NCBI GenBank assembly: GCA_964230645.1
Contig: CAXRHT010000001.1
Coordinates: 832,001-896,000 of the forward strand
Reading direction: 5' to 3'
Source: Bdellovibrionales bacterium
GTDB taxonomy: Bacteria; Bdellovibrionota; Bdellovibrionia; Bdellovibrionales; JAGQZY01
DNA: 64,000 bases
Shown here: piece by piece, positions 6,291 to 55,130 of the stretch
Layout of the letters: each line of letters starts with the position of its first letter
How positions within the stretch are numbered: the first letter of the stretch is position 1
The notes under the pieces: generated by a model
Told to the model about the DNA's origin: nothing
Database searches by the model: none
What the model saw: only the letters and a program-made list of their open reading frames with translations
Position numbers and translations under genes: made by a program

Positions 6291-6403
6291 GCTTTAGGTT
6301 TTGCGCTCCTTGCTCGAAGAGTCACGGAAAAACCCGGCCTTAAACAAAGCGTTAGCCGCAATTGGGCGGCCTGGTGGCTCAGGTCTTCGAACGAAGCTCG
6401 GGG

Positions 6404-6560
6404 CGCCTTCTCGTATTGGAAATGCGAAAGCTCAGAGAGCGTCTCCGACGAGGCCCAGCTCCTGCTTAGCTGGCATCGCCCTTTGGGCGAGCGCGTCCCG
6501 CTTGCCAGAGCCTCGCCGGAGACGCTCTCTGAGCTTTCGCATTTCCAACACGAGAAGGCG
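6404..6560. repeat. Long palindromic hairpin element 1 (51-bp arms, structured 55-nt loop)
   Basis: 6404-6454 is the reverse complement of 6510-6560 with 2 mismatches, both G:T wobbles on the minus strand. The loop contains the sub-stems CCAGCT/AGCTGG and TCGCCC/GGGCGA. It forms a GC-rich patch between divergent tmk and the response regulator. Confidence 0.9.
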
Positions 6561-6641: not shown

Positions 6642-7580
6642 ATGGACCAGCGAAACAATCGAGTTCTTATTGCTGATGGGGATAACAATCTTGCTAATCG
6701 CATGAGTGCGTATCTTAAGGAAAGTGGGTTTGCGCCTAAGGTGATCAGTAATAGTTATCTTTTGCAAAAGACTTTGCTTGAGTGGAGGCCTAAGTTTTTG
6801 TTTATTGATTTGCTGTTTCCTGGGGCCTATGCGCAGCAGATTTTGAAATTTTTAGGTGAGCGTCAAATGCTTGGGGAAGATGGTTGTCATGTGATTGTGA
6901 TGTCTAAGCACAATGCCGAGCTTAATGTGCGCAACTGCTTAGAATCTGGGGCTGAGGATTTTGTTGTTAAGCCTTTTAAAATGATCGATATTCTTGAGCG
7001 GTTGGCCCTTCTCAGTCAGGTGAAGCGTTATAATTTTAATGGATTGACTAATAACAACGAACGGCAGATTAAAAACTATTTTGAGATGATTCGACTTCTT
7101 GTTGAAGCCACCAATCAAGATAAAGACATCAGTCCCATGCGTTTTGAGATTTCAAAGATGATATCCATTGCTTTAAAAGCTGTAAGAACCTCTATTATTG
7201 CGACTAATCACGCTCGTGATGAGATCGAGGTGATTCGCTCAAGTGACGATGAATCTCTCACTAAACTACCGCTGGATCTTAAAAAATATCCGGAAGTGCA
7301 GTATGTGCTCAGAACAGAGAAGTCTCTTTTTATCGAAAGCCTGGAAAAAGATCTGACCATGGCTTTTGTTAAGCATGAGGTCAAAACTATCAATTTTGAC
7401 TCAATGATGGTGCTTCCCTTGATTCAGGGAGGGATTCTGCGGGGCTGTATGTCTATTAGAATGCCTAAGGATTGTAAGAAATTGACTTACTACGATATAA
7501 AAATGGCGGAAATCGCCGCTCAGTTGCTCTCCTCCACCTGGAAGTTTCAAGAAGTTGAGGCTCTAAAAAAAGCTGGATAA
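6642..7580 (+). CDS. Response regulator, REC + GAF-like domain
   Basis: N-terminal REC (VLIADGD, FIDLLFP with the phospho-Asp, VMSK, FVVKPF). C-terminal GAF-like region (LKKYPEV, SMMVLPL, GCMSIR). No DNA-binding or enzymatic output domain seen. Confidence 0.8.
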   Translation: MDQRNNRVLIADGDNNLANRMSAYLKESGFAPKVISNSYLLQKTLLEWRPKFLFIDLLFPGAYAQQILKFLGERQMLGEDGCHVIVMSKHNAELNVRNCLESGAEDFVVKPFKMIDILERLALLSQVKRYNFNGLTNNNERQIKNYFEMIRLLVEATNQDKDISPMRFEISKMISIALKAVRTSIIATNHARDEIEVIRSSDDESLTKLPLDLKKYPEVQYVLRTEKSLFIESLEKDLTMAFVKHEVKTINFDSMMVLPLIQGGILRGCMSIRMPKDCKKLTYYDIKMAEIAAQLLSSTWKFQEVEALKKAG

Positions 7581-23306: not shown

Positions 23307-24080
23307 ATGTGGGCACTTTTTCTCATTTTAAACATTATTAATCCGGCATGGGCTTTTCCTAAAAATATTGAAGTCGTAGAAAACGTTGTTATTGGTCGTG
23401 AGATCAGTGTTCCTGGAGACCGCTTATGTCACGATGGCGTCCATATTTATTTCCGCTCACAAGAAGACTGCCAAAAAACCAATATTGAGCATAGCTGTCG
23501 GAGCCAATTCATCGCACCTATCAGGCAAGCCGAAGTGATCTCCATTGATGAGAACAAAAAGATTTATCGATTTTTCGATGTGCCGAAAAGTTACGAAGTG
23601 AGAACCTATAACCCTGACGAGCGCGGTTATTTTGATCTCGTAGCACGGCAGACCCACTCCATTCCTTTTTGCTCAGGTGCTGAGCCCCGCGAACCAGTGA
23701 TCGTCTTTGAGCAAAGAGAAGGAACTCCAGAGGAACTGCCTTTTCTACAGAGACTTTTCAACTTTGGTGTGACTGTCATCAATACGGGCTTTGGGCCATT
23801 AAAAAGTCTTCATATGTTAAATCAAGAGAGTCACGAACTGGATTTTATCGACTATCGCTATCACACCAATATTCGTAGTCCTCTTTGTGTCGACGACCCC
23901 ATTCATGAAAATTTGATCCAACAAATTTCCGGAGAGTACAGTGGCGGAGGCGTTCGCTTTTTCAATATCAATCTACTTCAAAATATCTCTGGAGAGATCA
24001 TTCTCCCTACAAATCAAGATGTTTTAGAAACAAATCCTGAAGACTACCTTCTCGATTGCCTACCCTCGGTGAGCCTATGA
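23307..24080 (+). CDS. Secreted protein; N-terminal domain similar to the 22668 protein
   Basis: Signal peptide (PAWA); VPGDRLCHDGVHIYFR aligns with VPANKVCQQGGYLYHK. Confidence 0.75.
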   Translation: MWALFLILNIINPAWAFPKNIEVVENVVIGREISVPGDRLCHDGVHIYFRSQEDCQKTNIEHSCRSQFIAPIRQAEVISIDENKKIYRFFDVPKSYEVRTYNPDERGYFDLVARQTHSIPFCSGAEPREPVIVFEQREGTPEELPFLQRLFNFGVTVINTGFGPLKSLHMLNQESHELDFIDYRYHTNIRSPLCVDDPIHENLIQQISGEYSGGGVRFFNINLLQNISGEIILPTNQDVLETNPEDYLLDCLPSVSL

Positions 24081-24889
24081 TAGACACTCAACGGGCAGGT
24101 AAAAAAATATGTGAAAACTCAGCTTTTGACTCTGTGGTTGAACATCTAAAGTTTGTCATTTCGACCTATCTGGAAGAAAAACCTCATATGAGCCTTGGAG
24201 CCATTAGCAAAAAATGCTCTGTTAGCGAGCCCACTTTGCGCAGGATCATGAAGGGACAAATAAAAACTTTCCCAACAGTCACAACAGTGCTCGACATACT
24301 CACTTATGTAACCAATGAAAAGAAAACCTCAAAAATAATCTCTCTCTACCCAGGCCCCATCGCAGATTTTCTCAAAGAGATGGCCCCTTACGTGGAAGAC
24401 ACTCAAACCGATTACAGTGTTGAAATTAACCAAGAACTCAAACAACCCGTTAAATATTTAATTTACAAACTGGCTTCAAACTCAGCGGGTGTGACCAGAC
24501 AAAAAGTCAGCGACCTTTTCGGTGCCCACGGTTTAAAAAGTTTGGATTCACTCCAAGATAAGGCTTATATCGAAGAACGCGCCGGTAAGTACTTTAGTAC
24601 CTCAAAAAGCTTCACTTCCAGTCACGAAAACTTTGTGGAAAATTTCAAAACAGTCTCAGAGTTTCTAAAACCCGACAAACTCTCCCCAAGAAGCCGCCTC
24701 AATCCCCTCTTCAGAAACTTCTCAAACTCAGTCTCCCCGGAAGCCTTCGAAGAAATCCTAAAACTCCAAAAAAAGACCATGGCCCGTATAGCCCAAATCA
24801 TGACCAACGAAGAAAACCAAGGCGAAATCCCCCTCTTCCTACTACTAGCCATAGACACCCTAGACACAAAACCCCCCTCAGAATTCTAA
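24077..24889 (+). CDS. HTH protein, TIGR02147/DUF4423-like
   Basis: N-terminal HTH (SLGAISKKCSVSEPTLRRIMKG), central winged-helix-like segment, C-terminal SVSPEAFEEI. ATGA overlap with the upstream gene. Confidence 0.6.
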   Translation: MIDTQRAGKKICENSAFDSVVEHLKFVISTYLEEKPHMSLGAISKKCSVSEPTLRRIMKGQIKTFPTVTTVLDILTYVTNEKKTSKIISLYPGPIADFLKEMAPYVEDTQTDYSVEINQELKQPVKYLIYKLASNSAGVTRQKVSDLFGAHGLKSLDSLQDKAYIEERAGKYFSTSKSFTSSHENFVENFKTVSEFLKPDKLSPRSRLNPLFRNFSNSVSPEAFEEILKLQKKTMARIAQIMTNEENQGEIPLFLLLAIDTLDTKPPSEF

Positions 24890-24921
24890 ATAAAGAGCTC
24901 TTCCCACTACAAATGTAGTCT

Positions 24922-25085
24922 CCATTGCCTGGCTTGCGAGAGCCGAGGGGCTTGTCCCAAAGGCTCGAGCCGCGAGCGTTGCGTATCTTGGGTTGCGCCC
25001 AGAAGTGGGGCAATCCCGGAGACGAAATGCACCCGTCGGCATGCCTTGGGGACAAGCCCCTCGGCTCTCGCAAGCCAGGCAATGG
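24922..25085. repeat. Long palindromic hairpin element 2 (43-bp arms, 78-nt loop)
   Basis: 24922-24964 is the reverse complement of 25043-25085 with 1 mismatch. GC-rich, between convergent genes. The arm core resembles hairpin 1. Confidence 0.9.
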
Positions 25086-25091
25086 CCCGAT

Positions 25092-27065
25092 CTACATACT
25101 ATAACGATTGGGTAAACAGAGCGAACCATCAGGCCGCGTCGGCCGACGCGAAAAAAAGTTATAATGATTGAACCACTGCTTAGGATGTTGCTCGATTGTT
25201 TTCTCAACAAAATGAATATACTCCATCATAGCCTCGTAAACACTCAAGGTTCTCATATCCAGAGTTTTGGCAGCCAGTCCGTAGTTTTGCCCCTCTTCTT
25301 TAAAACCAAGAACGAAACTTAGTTGTACTTTATAAGTCTTTGCCAAACGAAAGGGCGTGGAAGGAAAAGGAGCGAGCTTTCCCATAAAAGGAAGAAGTTC
25401 AAAGTTATTGTCAAAGGGGCGATCTCCCATCAGAGCCATGTCATGGCTGTTAGAGAGGATGTCATGAATACCCATATAAATAGGCTCACCGGGCTCGAAA
25501 TAAAGAGTTTTTAAATTTTCTGAGGGACTTTCTTTTACCACCGATTCCGTTGATATTTTACTTGAGCGGTAGCGTACTAGATAAATCGTGCGATCAAAGC
25601 CTTTGCGACTGAAGCCTTGAGCGGTTAGCCCCCAACCTCCAAAATGAGAGAAAATAAGAATTTGAGAACTATTTTCCACAATTTTTTTAAGAGGCTCTCC
25701 TTCTCTGTAAGTGAGATCAAATTTTAATTCTTTGAACATGGCTTGATAAACTTGATCGACTAAGACTTGAGCAAATCGATAAAGATGCTGAATAATGCGA
25801 ACCTGAAGGCGTGTCCATCCAATGCCCGGTTCAATGATTCGATAGTATTCCGAAAGTCCGCGACGGGCTTTGGGTGCAAAAAGATAAAAATAAGGCACGA
25901 TCATATACAAAAAGAAATAGGCCATAGGAAGTCCACCGAATTTAATAATTCGTCCCATGGTCCAATGAGCCCACTTCGAGCCTCTCATATTTCCTGACCA
26001 GTTAATTTTTGATTTTTTCTCGGTCATTTGAACTTTGTACCAAAATCCACCTAGGAGAATAGCAAGCCCTCCCCCTACAATAAGGGAGCCAAGTAACCAG
26101 GAGGTGAAATGATTTTGAGCCACCTCCATCCATTTTCCTTCAAAATTAAATTTATGCCCCGTGATTTTAAAACCCACAAAAAGCTGCAATGGGACTAGTA
26201 ATGTATAAATGGGGGGAAGAGAAACTTGTGATCCTAAAAACGCAATAGGAAAACTCAACCGAAAGATAAACGCACAAGTAATAATTAAAAATGTCTGCAA
26301 ACCATAAAAAGGGGTGCAGGCAATAAAAACACCCATCGCAAGTGACAATGACGAGTGCAGGGGCCTTGTGCTGTTATGTAAACTTGTAAGGGCTATCAAC
26401 CACCAATCATAAAATGATTTTTTCCAACCCAGAAGTTCATTTTTCGTGCGAGTCTGCTCAGGATAGTCCACCGGGAGACTGACCTCTTCACACTCACCAC
26501 TAAGGCAGTGGATAAGAAGTTTTTCATGCAAATAATGATCGTTTTTTTTAAATTTTTTATCTTGAATATAGAAAATAGGATAAATCACAATTTCTGAATT
26601 GAGGTTGCGATAATCTTTTTCTCCAAGGTCCAAGAGCCGCTGCATAAAAGCGTTGTTGCGATGAGTTTGTCTTTTCCGAGGGACTAGCGCGATACGAGCC
26701 CAGGGGTTTGCGAGAATCAATTCTTTGCTTCTTTTAAGCTCACTGATAATAGGTCCCGAGAATCGATTCACATGAATAAGATGAGTCCAACCTTTCTTGC
26801 CACAGGTTTCGACACAATGTGAAAAAGCCGAGGTCTCATGCTCTGTTTCATCGGAGATAATTTGCACTTGGTCAGGGGCAAACACCTGCAGAATCGCCTG
26901 AGGATCCTGGCAAAGTTGGAGTTCGTGAGCATCGATGAGGACTGGTATTTTTAGCTCTGAAAGGGCTTTTAACGCCTCCAGGTCTTCAAGATGCCACTCA
27001 GTAATGAAGAGTACGGGTCTCAAATCCACGGTCTTACTAATATCCTTGCGTGCGCATTGAGTCAT
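25092..27065 (-). CDS. Fusion: degenerate GT2 + DUF2062 + LpxL/HtrB-family acyltransferase
   Basis: DUF2062-like GVFIACTPFYGLQT; C-terminal ALMGDR, FMGKLAPFP and HPKQWFNHYNF; the N-terminus aligns by eye with the GT2 at 10229. Confidence 0.75.
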   Translation of the reverse strand: MTQCARKDISKTVDLRPVLFITEWHLEDLEALKALSELKIPVLIDAHELQLCQDPQAILQVFAPDQVQIISDETEHETSAFSHCVETCGKKGWTHLIHVNRFSGPIISELKRSKELILANPWARIALVPRKRQTHRNNAFMQRLLDLGEKDYRNLNSEIVIYPIFYIQDKKFKKNDHYLHEKLLIHCLSGECEEVSLPVDYPEQTRTKNELLGWKKSFYDWWLIALTSLHNSTRPLHSSLSLAMGVFIACTPFYGLQTFLIITCAFIFRLSFPIAFLGSQVSLPPIYTLLVPLQLFVGFKITGHKFNFEGKWMEVAQNHFTSWLLGSLIVGGGLAILLGGFWYKVQMTEKKSKINWSGNMRGSKWAHWTMGRIIKFGGLPMAYFFLYMIVPYFYLFAPKARRGLSEYYRIIEPGIGWTRLQVRIIQHLYRFAQVLVDQVYQAMFKELKFDLTYREGEPLKKIVENSSQILIFSHFGGWGLTAQGFSRKGFDRTIYLVRYRSSKISTESVVKESPSENLKTLYFEPGEPIYMGIHDILSNSHDMALMGDRPFDNNFELLPFMGKLAPFPSTPFRLAKTYKVQLSFVLGFKEEGQNYGLAAKTLDMRTLSVYEAMMEYIHFVEKTIEQHPKQWFNHYNFFSRRPTRPDGSLCLPNRYSM

Positions 27066-36420: not shown

Positions 36421-36782
36421 CTGTCATCCTTAGGCTACACTGTCATTCTGAGGCTACACTGTCATTCTGAGGCTACACTGTCATTCTGAGCGAAGCGAAG
36501 AATCTGCCCGGTGTCTTTTCTCCGCTCAAGATCCTTCGGCTACGCCTCAGGATGACAATGCAAGAGAAGACACCACTCATTCACGTTTTGTCATTCTGAG
36601 CCTACGCTGTCATTCAGATCCTACACTGTCACTCTGAGCCCACACTGTCACTCTGAGCCCACACTGTCATTCTGAGCGAAGCGAAGAATCTGCCCGGTGT
36701 CTTTTCTCCGCACAAGATCCTTCGGCTACGCCTCAGGATGACAGTGTAGACTCAGGATGACAGTGCAGCCTCAGGATGACAA
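36421..36782. repeat. REP-like cluster: two ~81-bp cores plus nine 19-bp satellite units
   Basis: Cores TGTCATTCTGAGCGAAGCGAAGAATCT...AGATCCTTCGGCTACGCCTCAGGATGACA at 36478-36558 and 36664-36744; tandem CTGTCATTCTGAGGCTACA-type units. Confidence 0.92.
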
Positions 36783-54913: not shown

Positions 54914-55130
54914 ATGCCGCCCTGAACTCCATTGGTCGCCCTGAACTCCAAATGTCGTCCTGTACTCCAAATGTCGTCCTGAGCGTAGCGAAGGACCTTT
55001 ACCGAGGACTGTGATTGATAACGCGAACTCAGTGGAGATAGATTCTTCGCTACGCTCAGAATGACAGTGTGTTCATTCAGAGTAACAATGCGTACGCCCA
55101 GAAAGACAATGCGTACGCGAAGAATGACTA
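54914..55130. repeat. REP-like element with 19-bp (left) and 21-bp (right) tandem satellites
   Basis: Core TGTCGTCCTGAGCGTAGCGAAGGACCT...AGATTCTTCGCTACGCTCAGAATGACA (54971-55067); same family as the 36.4 kb cluster, opposite orientation. Confidence 0.88.

What the first reader, a model, noticed from the sequence alone, without database searches (positions are those of the whole stretch)
24665..25085. Mirror-image bias beside hairpin 2, a diverged relative of hairpin 1
Seen (hand count): 68 of the last 74 codons of the HTH gene left of the hairpin end in C/A, so the minus strand leaving the hairpin is G/T-rich. The start of that gene and the gene on the other side are unbiased. Both affected genes are on the + strand yet biased in opposite directions, so codon preference or replichore skew cannot explain it. 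The arm cores are similar (TGCGAAAGCTCAGAGAGCGTCTCC vs TGCGAGAGCCGAGGGGCTTGTCC), and each hairpin keeps near-perfect pairing. Inference: one structure-conserved family of non-autonomous elements or structured RNAs with a directional effect on the flank.
Basis: partly seen in the sequence, partly recalled or inferred. Interest (0 to 1): 0.72.

Follow-up and report, generated by a model that had tools for sequence, protein, structure and literature searches.

The report
Polar hairpin repeats rewriting neighbouring genes
This hairpin is one of 43 oriented copies in the genome that keep a conserved centre between paired arms whose sequence differs from copy to copy, and silent codon positions on one side of each testable copy are skewed toward C/A for about 500 bases, likely because nicking at the hairpin repeatedly exposes or re-copies one DNA strand.

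Summary
The skew is real (68 of 74 codons) and genome-wide. Hairpin 2 is one of 28 copies defined by a conserved 84-nt loop. Hairpin 1 belongs to a second type (24 copies). Each core sits inside 35-55-bp arms that are 97% paired but only about 35% alike between copies. Upstream of all 42 testable variable-arm copies, third positions are C/A-rich on the folding strand (0.73 vs 0.51 permuted). The skew decays over about 500 nt, ignores gene strand and replichore, and is essentially transitions. 19 of the genome's 20 most skewed windows lie there. Orthologues without the element are unbiased, and the pattern recurs in other Bdellovibrionales. Corrections: the two hairpins do not align beyond chance, and the gene right of hairpin 2 is also skewed, on the same strand. 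Best mechanism (inferred, 0.45): a REP/RAYT-type nick at the folded strand, then single-strand exposure or re-copying. I found no description in print (10 searches). This scan noted REP-flanking skews before on other DNA (e1-5225512, e1-1204660, others) and one copy of this element here (e1-2224726).

The parts
24056..24889 (+).
   Evidence: Syntenic 74%-identical orthologue in G004 has no element and 0.46 C/A in its last 74 codons
24400..24921 (+). Upstream bias zone of hairpin 2 (strongest 24665-24889): folding strand C/A-rich, opposite strand G/T-rich
24922..24961 (+). 5' arm of hairpin 2 (copy-specific sequence)
24962..25045 (+). Conserved 84-nt type-A core: long irregular stem with conserved mismatches and a GAA apical loop; 28 copies in the genome
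25046..25085 (+). 3' arm of hairpin 2 (inverted copy of the 5' arm)
25086..25095 (+). C-run tail just outside the 3' arm (found in 32 of 39 A/B copies; 4-9 of 39 in control positions)
25092..25268 (-). Last 58 codons of the convergent DUF2062/acyltransferase-like gene: G/T-rich on the minus strand, same strand polarity as the left flank
6513..6560 (-). 5' arm of hairpin 1 (element reads on the minus strand)
6452..6512 (-). Conserved 61-nt type-B core: multi-branched fold shared with types C and D; 11+4+9 copies in the genome
6404..6451 (-). 3' arm of hairpin 1
6380..6403 (-). Tail of hairpin 1: C-run plus what looks like a remnant of the longer 3' end kept by types C and D
6642..7580 (+). Response regulator gene upstream of hairpin 1; first 150 codons 119 G/T-ending, i.e. 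C/A on the folding strand

Best explanation
Hairpins 1 and 2 are oriented copies of REP-like DNA elements with a conserved core inside copy-specific paired arms, and the DNA upstream of each is skewed toward C/A on the folding strand, likely because a structure-specific HUH nuclease of the RAYT type nicks that strand at or near the hairpin and the gap is repaired by one-directional exposure and re-copying. SHOWN: the architecture, the orientation, a gradient of about 500 nt, a shift that is essentially T>C and G>A on the folding strand (A>G and C>T on the partner strand), its dependence on the element rather than the gene, and in-place turnover of the arms around a nearly fixed core. INFERRED: (1) the top strand folds as single-stranded DNA; (2) a nick leaves a protein-blocked 5' end and a free 3'-OH; (3) the 3' end is chewed back and/or folds onto the 5' arm and primes copying of the top strand in the upstream direction; (4) this rewrites the 3' arm as a perfect complement and leaves the partner strand displaced (C and A deamination) or freshly made at low fidelity. 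A rough equilibrium estimate, assuming neutrality, gives only a few-fold rise in both transitions, accumulated over long residence. The enzyme is not identified.
For: Gradient: third-position C/A on the folding strand is 0.74-0.83 at 50-150 nt, 0.64 at 400-600 nt, and background by 1.5-2 kb, for genes on either strand (type A). Pooled A/B/C 0.728 vs 0.506+/-0.009, maximum 0.530 in 500 random intergenic draws; fitted decay 501 nt. Same on both replichore orientations: 0.734 (18 copies) vs 0.724 (25 copies). Spectrum: two-fold C 0.37>0.72, two-fold A 0.64>0.87, four-fold purine share 0.38>0.34, no neighbour-base preference, amino-acid use shifted the same way. Follows the element: at identical residues 0-300 nt out, 0.67-0.68 with the element vs 0.50-0.52 in G000 orthologues without it (18 gene pairs). 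Other genomes, fetched subsets: type A upstream 0.628 vs downstream 0.495 vs far 0.501 (47 of 60 testable, p=7e-8); type B/C/D 0.59 vs 0.51 vs 0.51 (29 of 39, p=5e-5). Arm copying: at the orthologous dapB site of G006 and G010 the core is 80/84 identical, the arms 21/50, and nearby silent sites 54-55%; in G010 the 5' arm takes in the last 20 nt of dapB and the 3' arm is its inverted copy. RAYT link: 5 of 20 fetched G090 copies end in the roughly 35-nt repeat that flanks a G090 RAYT gene. GGTACC-type repeats in G000 (29 sites; this class flanks both of its RAYT-like genes) show the same-sense bias at short range, 0.75 at 5-55 nt and 0.66 at 55-105 nt, while 118 CGTC-type clusters show none (0.50). 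TnpA-REP cuts single-stranded DNA at many sites over >400 nt on both sides of a BIME (PMC3333891, passages) and leaves a 5'-phosphotyrosine and a free 3'-OH (PMC3479197, passages). Endonuclease V not found in 0 of 5 genomes, uracil glycosylase present in 5 of 5, which would let A>G keep pace with C>T.
Against: No A or B core lies beside any of 16 RAYT loci examined, including both in G000, and G000's A/B copies have no RAYT-type ends. RAYT-like genes are not specific: 107 of 151 order genomes have one, while G040 has 20 A copies and no match with this query. The two G000 proteins score below the NCBIfam RAYT cut-off (65 and 71 vs 80 bits). E. coli K-12 REP clusters (27 in 300 kb) show no such bias although E. 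coli has a RAYT. The bias is weak or absent beside many copies elsewhere (G125, G066, G002, G041, G069, G127), and arm divergence does not predict it overall (Spearman 0.01, n=116; only the 11 most alike copies are low, 0.04 vs 0.15-0.22). 5' arms are T/G-rich, unlike the flank, and in G017 the 3' arm abuts terminator-like T-tracts, so copying need not always run 5' arm to 3' arm. No nick, single-stranded state or mutation rate was measured.
Confidence: 0.45

Rival explanations
1. No nuclease. The folded top strand is a polar obstacle when it is the replication template. The polymerase stalls, template-switches (perfecting the arms) and restarts with a lower-fidelity enzyme or leaves a gap, so the partner strand made just past the element, which always runs upstream, collects A>G and C>T.
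For: Explains one-sidedness on both replichores with no dedicated enzyme. The top strand folds better in 50 of 52 copies. A Y-family polymerase is present in 5 of 5 genomes. Template switching creates and perfects stems (PMC8794818, abstract). Uncorrected replication errors give paired A:T and G:C transitions with this strand pattern (10.1101/346874, passages; which strand carries the error is unresolved there).
Against: Long CGTC hairpin arrays and type D copies fold as well but show no bias. Short RAYT-type repeats do show it. MutL is present. Does not by itself explain why the core sequence is held.
Confidence: 0.25
2. RNA-level cause: the element drives or traps transcription (promoter or R-loop) on the bottom strand outward, and the non-template strand deaminates.
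For: The core covaries as a stem (17 of 37 pairs with two-sided changes) and RNA folding also favours the top strand. At hairpin 2 and at type C copies the same strand is biased on the tail side too.
Against: Highly expressed groEL and rpsA show no G/T excess on their coding strand (0.53 and 0.51). No sigma-70-type promoter or terminator pattern at 24500-25500. No Rfam match. The strand that folds is opposite to the one that would be transcribed outward.
Confidence: 0.12
3. Selection or target choice, not mutation: elements insert beside C/A-rich DNA, or neighbours are selected to be unstructured (A/C-rich) or Rho-loading so that the element can work.
For: The core is strongly conserved and some sites are shared across genera (5 same-side matches among 50 neighbour genes), so a host function is plausible.
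Against: Orthologous genes without the element are unbiased. Type D copies, which have conserved arms, sit in unbiased DNA. The shift is essentially transitions, reaches 1 kb, applies to antisense strands and alters amino-acid use. T is depleted, unlike pyrimidine-rich Rho sites (own knowledge).
Confidence: 0.1
4. An error-prone reverse transcriptase uses the core as a priming structure, copies RNA upstream, and the cDNA recombines back (self-targeting, DGR-like).
For: A cDNA would be the G/T-rich strand, would start at the element and would fall off with distance.
Against: No RVT_1 match in G000, G010 or G137, all strongly biased. The bias is as strong where the RNA would have to be antisense. 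It is not adenine-specific.
Confidence: 0.05

Closest known systems
REP/BIME and REPIN elements with RAYT (TnpA-REP, Y1 HUH) (PMC3116915, PMC3333891, PMC3479197, PMC8266576, PMC5581495: passages; 10.1101/2021.07.10.451892: passages)
   Same: Dispersed, mostly extragenic, strand-specific irregular hairpins that persist for long periods. RAYT-like genes occur in the same genomes, and some G090 copies carry RAYT-flanking repeats as outer ends.
   Different: Inside-out conservation: REPINs keep the ends and vary the spacer, whereas these keep the loop and vary the paired arms. No GTAG tag. No cognate RAYT flanked by the core. A flanking mutation gradient is not mentioned in the passages read and is absent at E. 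coli REPs.
CGTC-tagged REPs and TIRtrons/TIRYTs (PMC3733652, passages)
   Same: Palindromic repeats with no dedicated transposase. Type D copies are fused to a CGTC-type repeat, and the local RAYT-like genes are flanked by non-GTAG inverted repeats.
   Different: CGTC-type clusters in this genome have conserved arms and no flank bias.
Quasi-palindrome template switching (PMC8794818 abstract; PMC5941160 and PMC7202029 search listings)
   Same: Accounts for arms that change yet stay perfectly paired, and for an arm extending over host DNA.
   Different: Acts inside the repeat. It does not give a 500-nt one-sided transition gradient.
EvolvR (nickase plus error-prone Pol I; PMC12009436, passages)
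   Same: A nick-anchored, directionally asymmetric mutation window.
   Different: Engineered and protein-guided, with windows of tens of bases and all substitution types. Here the effect is natural, cis-anchored, transition-limited and estimated at only a few-fold.
Rickettsia palindromic elements (recalled; named in earlier finding e1-2224726)
   Same: One type A copy lies in frame in a gene (G000 C1:641092).
   Different: Most copies are intergenic. RPEs are not known to me to have variable arms or a flank gradient.
Mitochondrial heavy-strand deamination gradient (recalled)
   Same: C>T plus A>G on one strand, graded with distance.
   Different: Set by replication origins across a whole replicon, not by dozens of dispersed 200-bp elements.

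Membership tests
REPIN / REP-RAYT | Multi-copy, mainly extragenic hairpin | tested here: met
   52 copies; nearly all between genes
REPIN / REP-RAYT | Conserved REP ends in inverted orientation around a less conserved spacer | tested here: not met
   Arms 32-35% alike, cores 83-90% (A, B). Exception: 5 of 20 G090 copies have REP-like ends
REPIN / REP-RAYT | GTAG tetranucleotide at the hairpin foot | tested here: not met
   No conserved GTAG in end-anchored alignments of 37 A/B copies; GTAG...CTAC near hairpin 2 only
REPIN / REP-RAYT | Cognate RAYT gene flanked by the same repeat | tested here: inconclusive
   No core at 16 RAYT loci, but the repeat flanking a G090 RAYT forms the ends of 5 copies
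REPIN / REP-RAYT | Strand-specific irregular stem with conserved mismatches | tested here: met
   Covariation 0 of 500 shuffles, slid controls 33-49% vs 96% paired (structure came from the same alignment); top strand favoured in 50 of 52
REPIN / REP-RAYT | Cleavage of the folded strand by the RAYT | not testable with these tools
   Needs an in vitro cleavage assay
MITE | Conserved terminal inverted repeats | tested here: not met
   Outer arm positions carry near-zero information
MITE | Target-site duplication and a parent transposase | not tested
   No close empty site available; G004 is too distant
Known structured RNA | Match to an Rfam model | tested here: not met
   0 matches at gathering score in the window
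DGR / retron | Reverse transcriptase in the genome | tested here: not met
   No RVT_1 in G000 (99.6% complete), G010 or G137; present in G017 and G090
DGR | Adenine-specific changes and a separate template repeat | tested here: not met
   Both transitions shift about equally; no flank repeat in the window

The most novel reading that the evidence does not exclude
These are natural cis-acting directional mutators: a host-maintained folded-DNA landing site whose own 3' arm primes repeated low-fidelity copying of the chromosome upstream. It regenerates its arms and rewrites hundreds of bases of the neighbouring gene, including its amino acids, at dozens of loci in predatory bacteria. The one-sided elements then give the polarity of a process that also leaves mirror skews around REP doublets in many other bacteria.
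Probability: 0.3. Interest if true: 0.92.

Novelty: new variant of a known kind. Interest (0 to 1): 0.78.

Why it matters
What RAYT/REP systems do inside cells is a long-standing open question, and the evidence is almost all in vitro. A strand-resolved footprint with a measurable length (about 500 nt) and polarity would be an in vivo record of where DNA is nicked, exposed or re-made. Because these elements fold on one strand only, they fix the direction of the process, which symmetric REP doublets cannot. The effect is large enough to produce 19 of the 20 most skewed coding windows in the genome and to shift amino-acid use, so it confounds codon-bias, horizontal-transfer and dN/dS inferences near such repeats. 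Type B cores also occur in single-contig genomes of another family in the order (G085, G100), so if any is cultured the claim is directly testable.

Tried and rejected
Rfam: no match. Exact G000 type A pattern in genome contigs: 0. A relaxed pattern gave 22 loci, all titled Bdellovibrionales, Bdellovibrionaceae or Pseudobdellovibrionaceae, and 0 in viral contigs. No match in phage or plasmid collections. Search for an autonomous copy failed: no nuclease or transposase recognised by eye among the neighbours of 52 copies (not profile-scanned); no RAYT-like ORF between 14 multi-copy loci; the only GIY-YIG in G000 is a UvrC-sized protein. The regex 'core' near one G017 RAYT was a false hit. Cleavage-site depletion (loss of CT) rejected: no context effect. 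Arm captured from the target at insertion rejected as a general rule: arms keep a weak shared pattern (0.35 vs 0.26 shuffled). Transition excess among arms is slight. Age versus bias: no overall trend. Sequencing runs: 5 DNA holders, contigs only, no RNA holder listed; laying them showed no usable variation near the elements. Ten literature searches listed nothing describing this element or a repeat-anchored transition gradient in bacteria; the library lacks most subscription papers and no supplements were read. Caveats: gene calls are longest-ORF calls, not a gene finder. Foreign loci are a fetched subset, mostly top-scoring hits, and kin are not independent.

Full report
OBSERVATION. The window is G000:C1:832001-896000. 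Records sharing the element's core are titled Bdellovibrionales. The hand count is exact: 68 of the last 74 codons of 24056-24889 end in C or A, including all of codons 251-278. No background gene of 2614 exceeds 59. Both hairpins fold far better than shuffles. Two statements fail. The convergent gene on the right is skewed on the same (minus) strand, 45 of its last 58 codons, a level 0 of 2614 genes reach; and the start of the left gene is mildly skewed, 56 of 92. The proposed arm homology is borderline (p=0.047; 11% of 308 cross-type pairs score as high), the loops do not align, and each covariance model finds only its own hairpin.

WHAT THE ELEMENT IS. Searching the genome with each hairpin returns copies of the loop, not of the arms. 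The catalogue is type A, 28 copies (hairpin 2), and types B 11 (hairpin 1), C 4 and D 9, which share a multi-branched core. In A, B and C the core sits inside 35-55-bp arms with 55 mismatches in 1918 positions. Arms are 35%, 32% and 46% alike between copies, while cores are 83%, 90% and 94% alike; D has conserved arms, 81%. The A core covaries as a stem (17 of 37 pairs with two-sided changes, 0 of 500 shuffles, slid controls far lower; the structure was derived from the same alignment). One strand, here called top, folds better in 50 of 52 copies as DNA and 48 of 52 as RNA, and the A apical loop is GNA in 24 of 28. That GNA loops are unusually stable in single-stranded DNA is my own knowledge. 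A C-run lies just outside the 3' arm in 32 of 39 A/B copies, against 4, 9 and 7 at control positions. It resembles a remnant of the longer end kept in C and D.

THE FLANK EFFECT. With copies oriented by the core, third positions upstream of type A are 0.74-0.83 C/A on the top strand at 50-150 nt, 0.64 at 400-600 nt and background by 1.5-2 kb, whether the gene runs with or against the element. B and C behave alike; D shows little or nothing. All 42 A/B/C copies with coding DNA upstream are at 0.54-0.85. Pooled, 0.728 against 0.506+/-0.009 in 500 random intergenic draws, with a fitted decay of 501 nt. Replichore orientation does not matter (0.734 vs 0.724). Of 20 genome-wide peaks at >=60/74, 19 are 32-325 nt upstream of an element in the predicted sense; at >=56/74, 30 of 57 are. 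Downstream the A/B effect is slight (0.54-0.58 vs 0.52 expected), but it is clear at hairpin 2 and at type C (0.82 within 100 nt, n=45), always on the same strand. The shift is essentially transitions, T>C and G>A on top, similar in size, without context preference, and it moves amino-acid use (K, N, I, T, H, P up on the C/A strand). Gene calls are longest-ORF calls.

IT FOLLOWS THE ELEMENT. The syntenic orthologue of the left gene in G004 (74% identical) has no element there and 0.46 C/A in its last 74 codons. For 18 genes upstream of elements in other genomes, identical residues within 300 nt are 0.67-0.68 C/A against 0.50-0.52 in the element-free G000 orthologue; 2 further pairs were dropped because G000 has an element nearby. 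Type A was found in 7 of 26 family genomes, 14 of 151 order genomes and 3 of 151 phylum genomes, the last all in this order. The B/C/D core was found in 40 of 151 order genomes. In the fetched subsets, upstream exceeds far flank in 47 of 60 A and 29 of 39 B/C/D copies; downstream does so in 26 of 58 and 19 of 41. Strength varies: 0.80-0.87 in G017, G010 and G137, near background in G125, G066, G002, G041 and others. Arm divergence does not predict it overall (Spearman 0.01, n=116), though the 11 most alike copies are lowest.

PERSISTENCE AND ARM COPYING. At the orthologous dapB site of G006 and G010 the core is 80/84 identical, the arms 21/50, and neighbouring silent sites 54-55%. So the arms turn over in place around a constrained core. 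In G010 the 5' arm includes the last 20 nt of dapB and the 3' arm is its complement, which is best read as templated copying. Five of 50 foreign neighbour genes match a G000 element neighbour on the same side and strand (4 sites, including the groEL and rpsA 3' ends), indicating inheritance or repeated targeting. Residual arm mismatches favour G.T over A.C on top (19 vs 6 of 41 in G000; 21 vs 11 of 58 elsewhere).

MECHANISM. Both transitions on one strand fit either deamination of an exposed bottom strand or errors in re-made DNA; the data do not separate these. Endonuclease V was not found and uracil glycosylase was; MutL and a Y-family polymerase are present; no reverse transcriptase was found in G000. 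For a RAYT-type nick: 5 of 20 fetched G090 copies end in the repeat that flanks a G090 RAYT gene; 29 GGTACC-type repeats in G000 show the same-sense skew over about 100 nt; flanks of 13 RAYT loci with a detectable repeat are 0.56 and 0.61 within 300 nt vs 0.47-0.50 beyond; CGTC clusters, reported to lack a transposase (PMC3733652 passages), show none; TnpA-REP cuts one strand at many sites over >400 nt on both sides (PMC3333891 passages; PMC8266576 passages), leaving a free 3'-OH upstream of a blocked 5' end (PMC3479197 passages). Top-strand nicks followed by 3' chew-back or fold-back priming would expose the bottom strand mostly upstream and weakly on the tail side, as seen, and would rewrite the 3' arm. 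Against it: no core beside 16 RAYT loci; RAYT-like genes in 107 of 151 genomes and none found in G040 with its 20 copies; sub-threshold family scores; no skew at 27 E. coli REP clusters. I put this mechanism at 0.45, polar replication stalling at 0.25, transcription or R-loop at 0.12, selection or targeting at 0.10 and reverse transcription at 0.05.

COMPARISON AND NOVELTY. It works like a REP/REPIN-type folded-DNA element but fails the REPIN definition, which is conserved ends and a variable spacer (PMC3116915 passages; 10.1101/2021.07.10.451892 passages; PMC5581495 passages). It has no GTAG tag and is not a MITE, an Rfam RNA or a DGR. Template switching (PMC8794818 abstract) can explain the arms but not the gradient. 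EvolvR (PMC12009436 passages) is the nearest functional analogue. Ten searches listed no description of the element or of such a gradient; subscription papers and supplements were not seen. Unchecked notes of this scan report two-sided skews around REP-like repeats in other bacteria and the in-frame gspJ copy of type A in this genome. They are leads, not support; I tested only the copy in this genome. What this case adds is the inside-out architecture, the one-strand polarity, the orthologue control and a negative E. coli control.

VERDICT. Real, far beyond chance, and general within this order. The anatomy and the footprint are shown; the enzyme is not. New variant of a known kind; interest 0.78.

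Noticed in passing
G000:C2:675622-675966(-) (L213): Four-helix-bundle gene (TIGR02436) beside a tRNA gene and short tandem repeats. It is the only one of 20 extreme third-position windows not next to a catalogued element (62 of 74), so it may reflect a second source of the same skew.
   Followed up: partly
window 36421-36782 and 55040-55071: CGTC-type REP arrays, part of 118 clusters in the genome; no flank bias.
   Followed up: yes
G000:C2:1838144-1838794 and C2:1598732-1599394 (L001, L002): Two RAYT-like genes flanked by GGTACC-type inverted repeats. Repeats of this class show a short-range C/A bias 5' of the repeat.
   Followed up: yes
G000:C3:487062, C1:142853, C1:733456, C3:591841: A roughly 40-nt hairpin module is inserted inside one type A core and three type D cores, suggesting a second mobile unit.
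   Followed up: no
L135 (G137) and L064 (G015): After what looks like the same upstream gene end, one genome has a RAYT gene with its repeats and the other a type A element (matched by eye).
   Followed up: no
window 25136-25151: Perfect 16-bp palindrome inside the last codons of the convergent gene.
   Followed up: no
L244, L246, L247, L248 (G010, G006, G008): Type B/C copies often occur back to back, 100-700 nt apart, around non-coding and sometimes very low-complexity DNA.
   Followed up: partly
G000:C3:715930-716053 and C3:702274-702377: Long-armed hairpins with other cores; possibly further types of the same architecture.
   Followed up: no
L034, L035, L036, L038 (G017): The 3' arm ends in an A-tract directly beside a terminator-like hairpin of the convergent gene.
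   Followed up: partly
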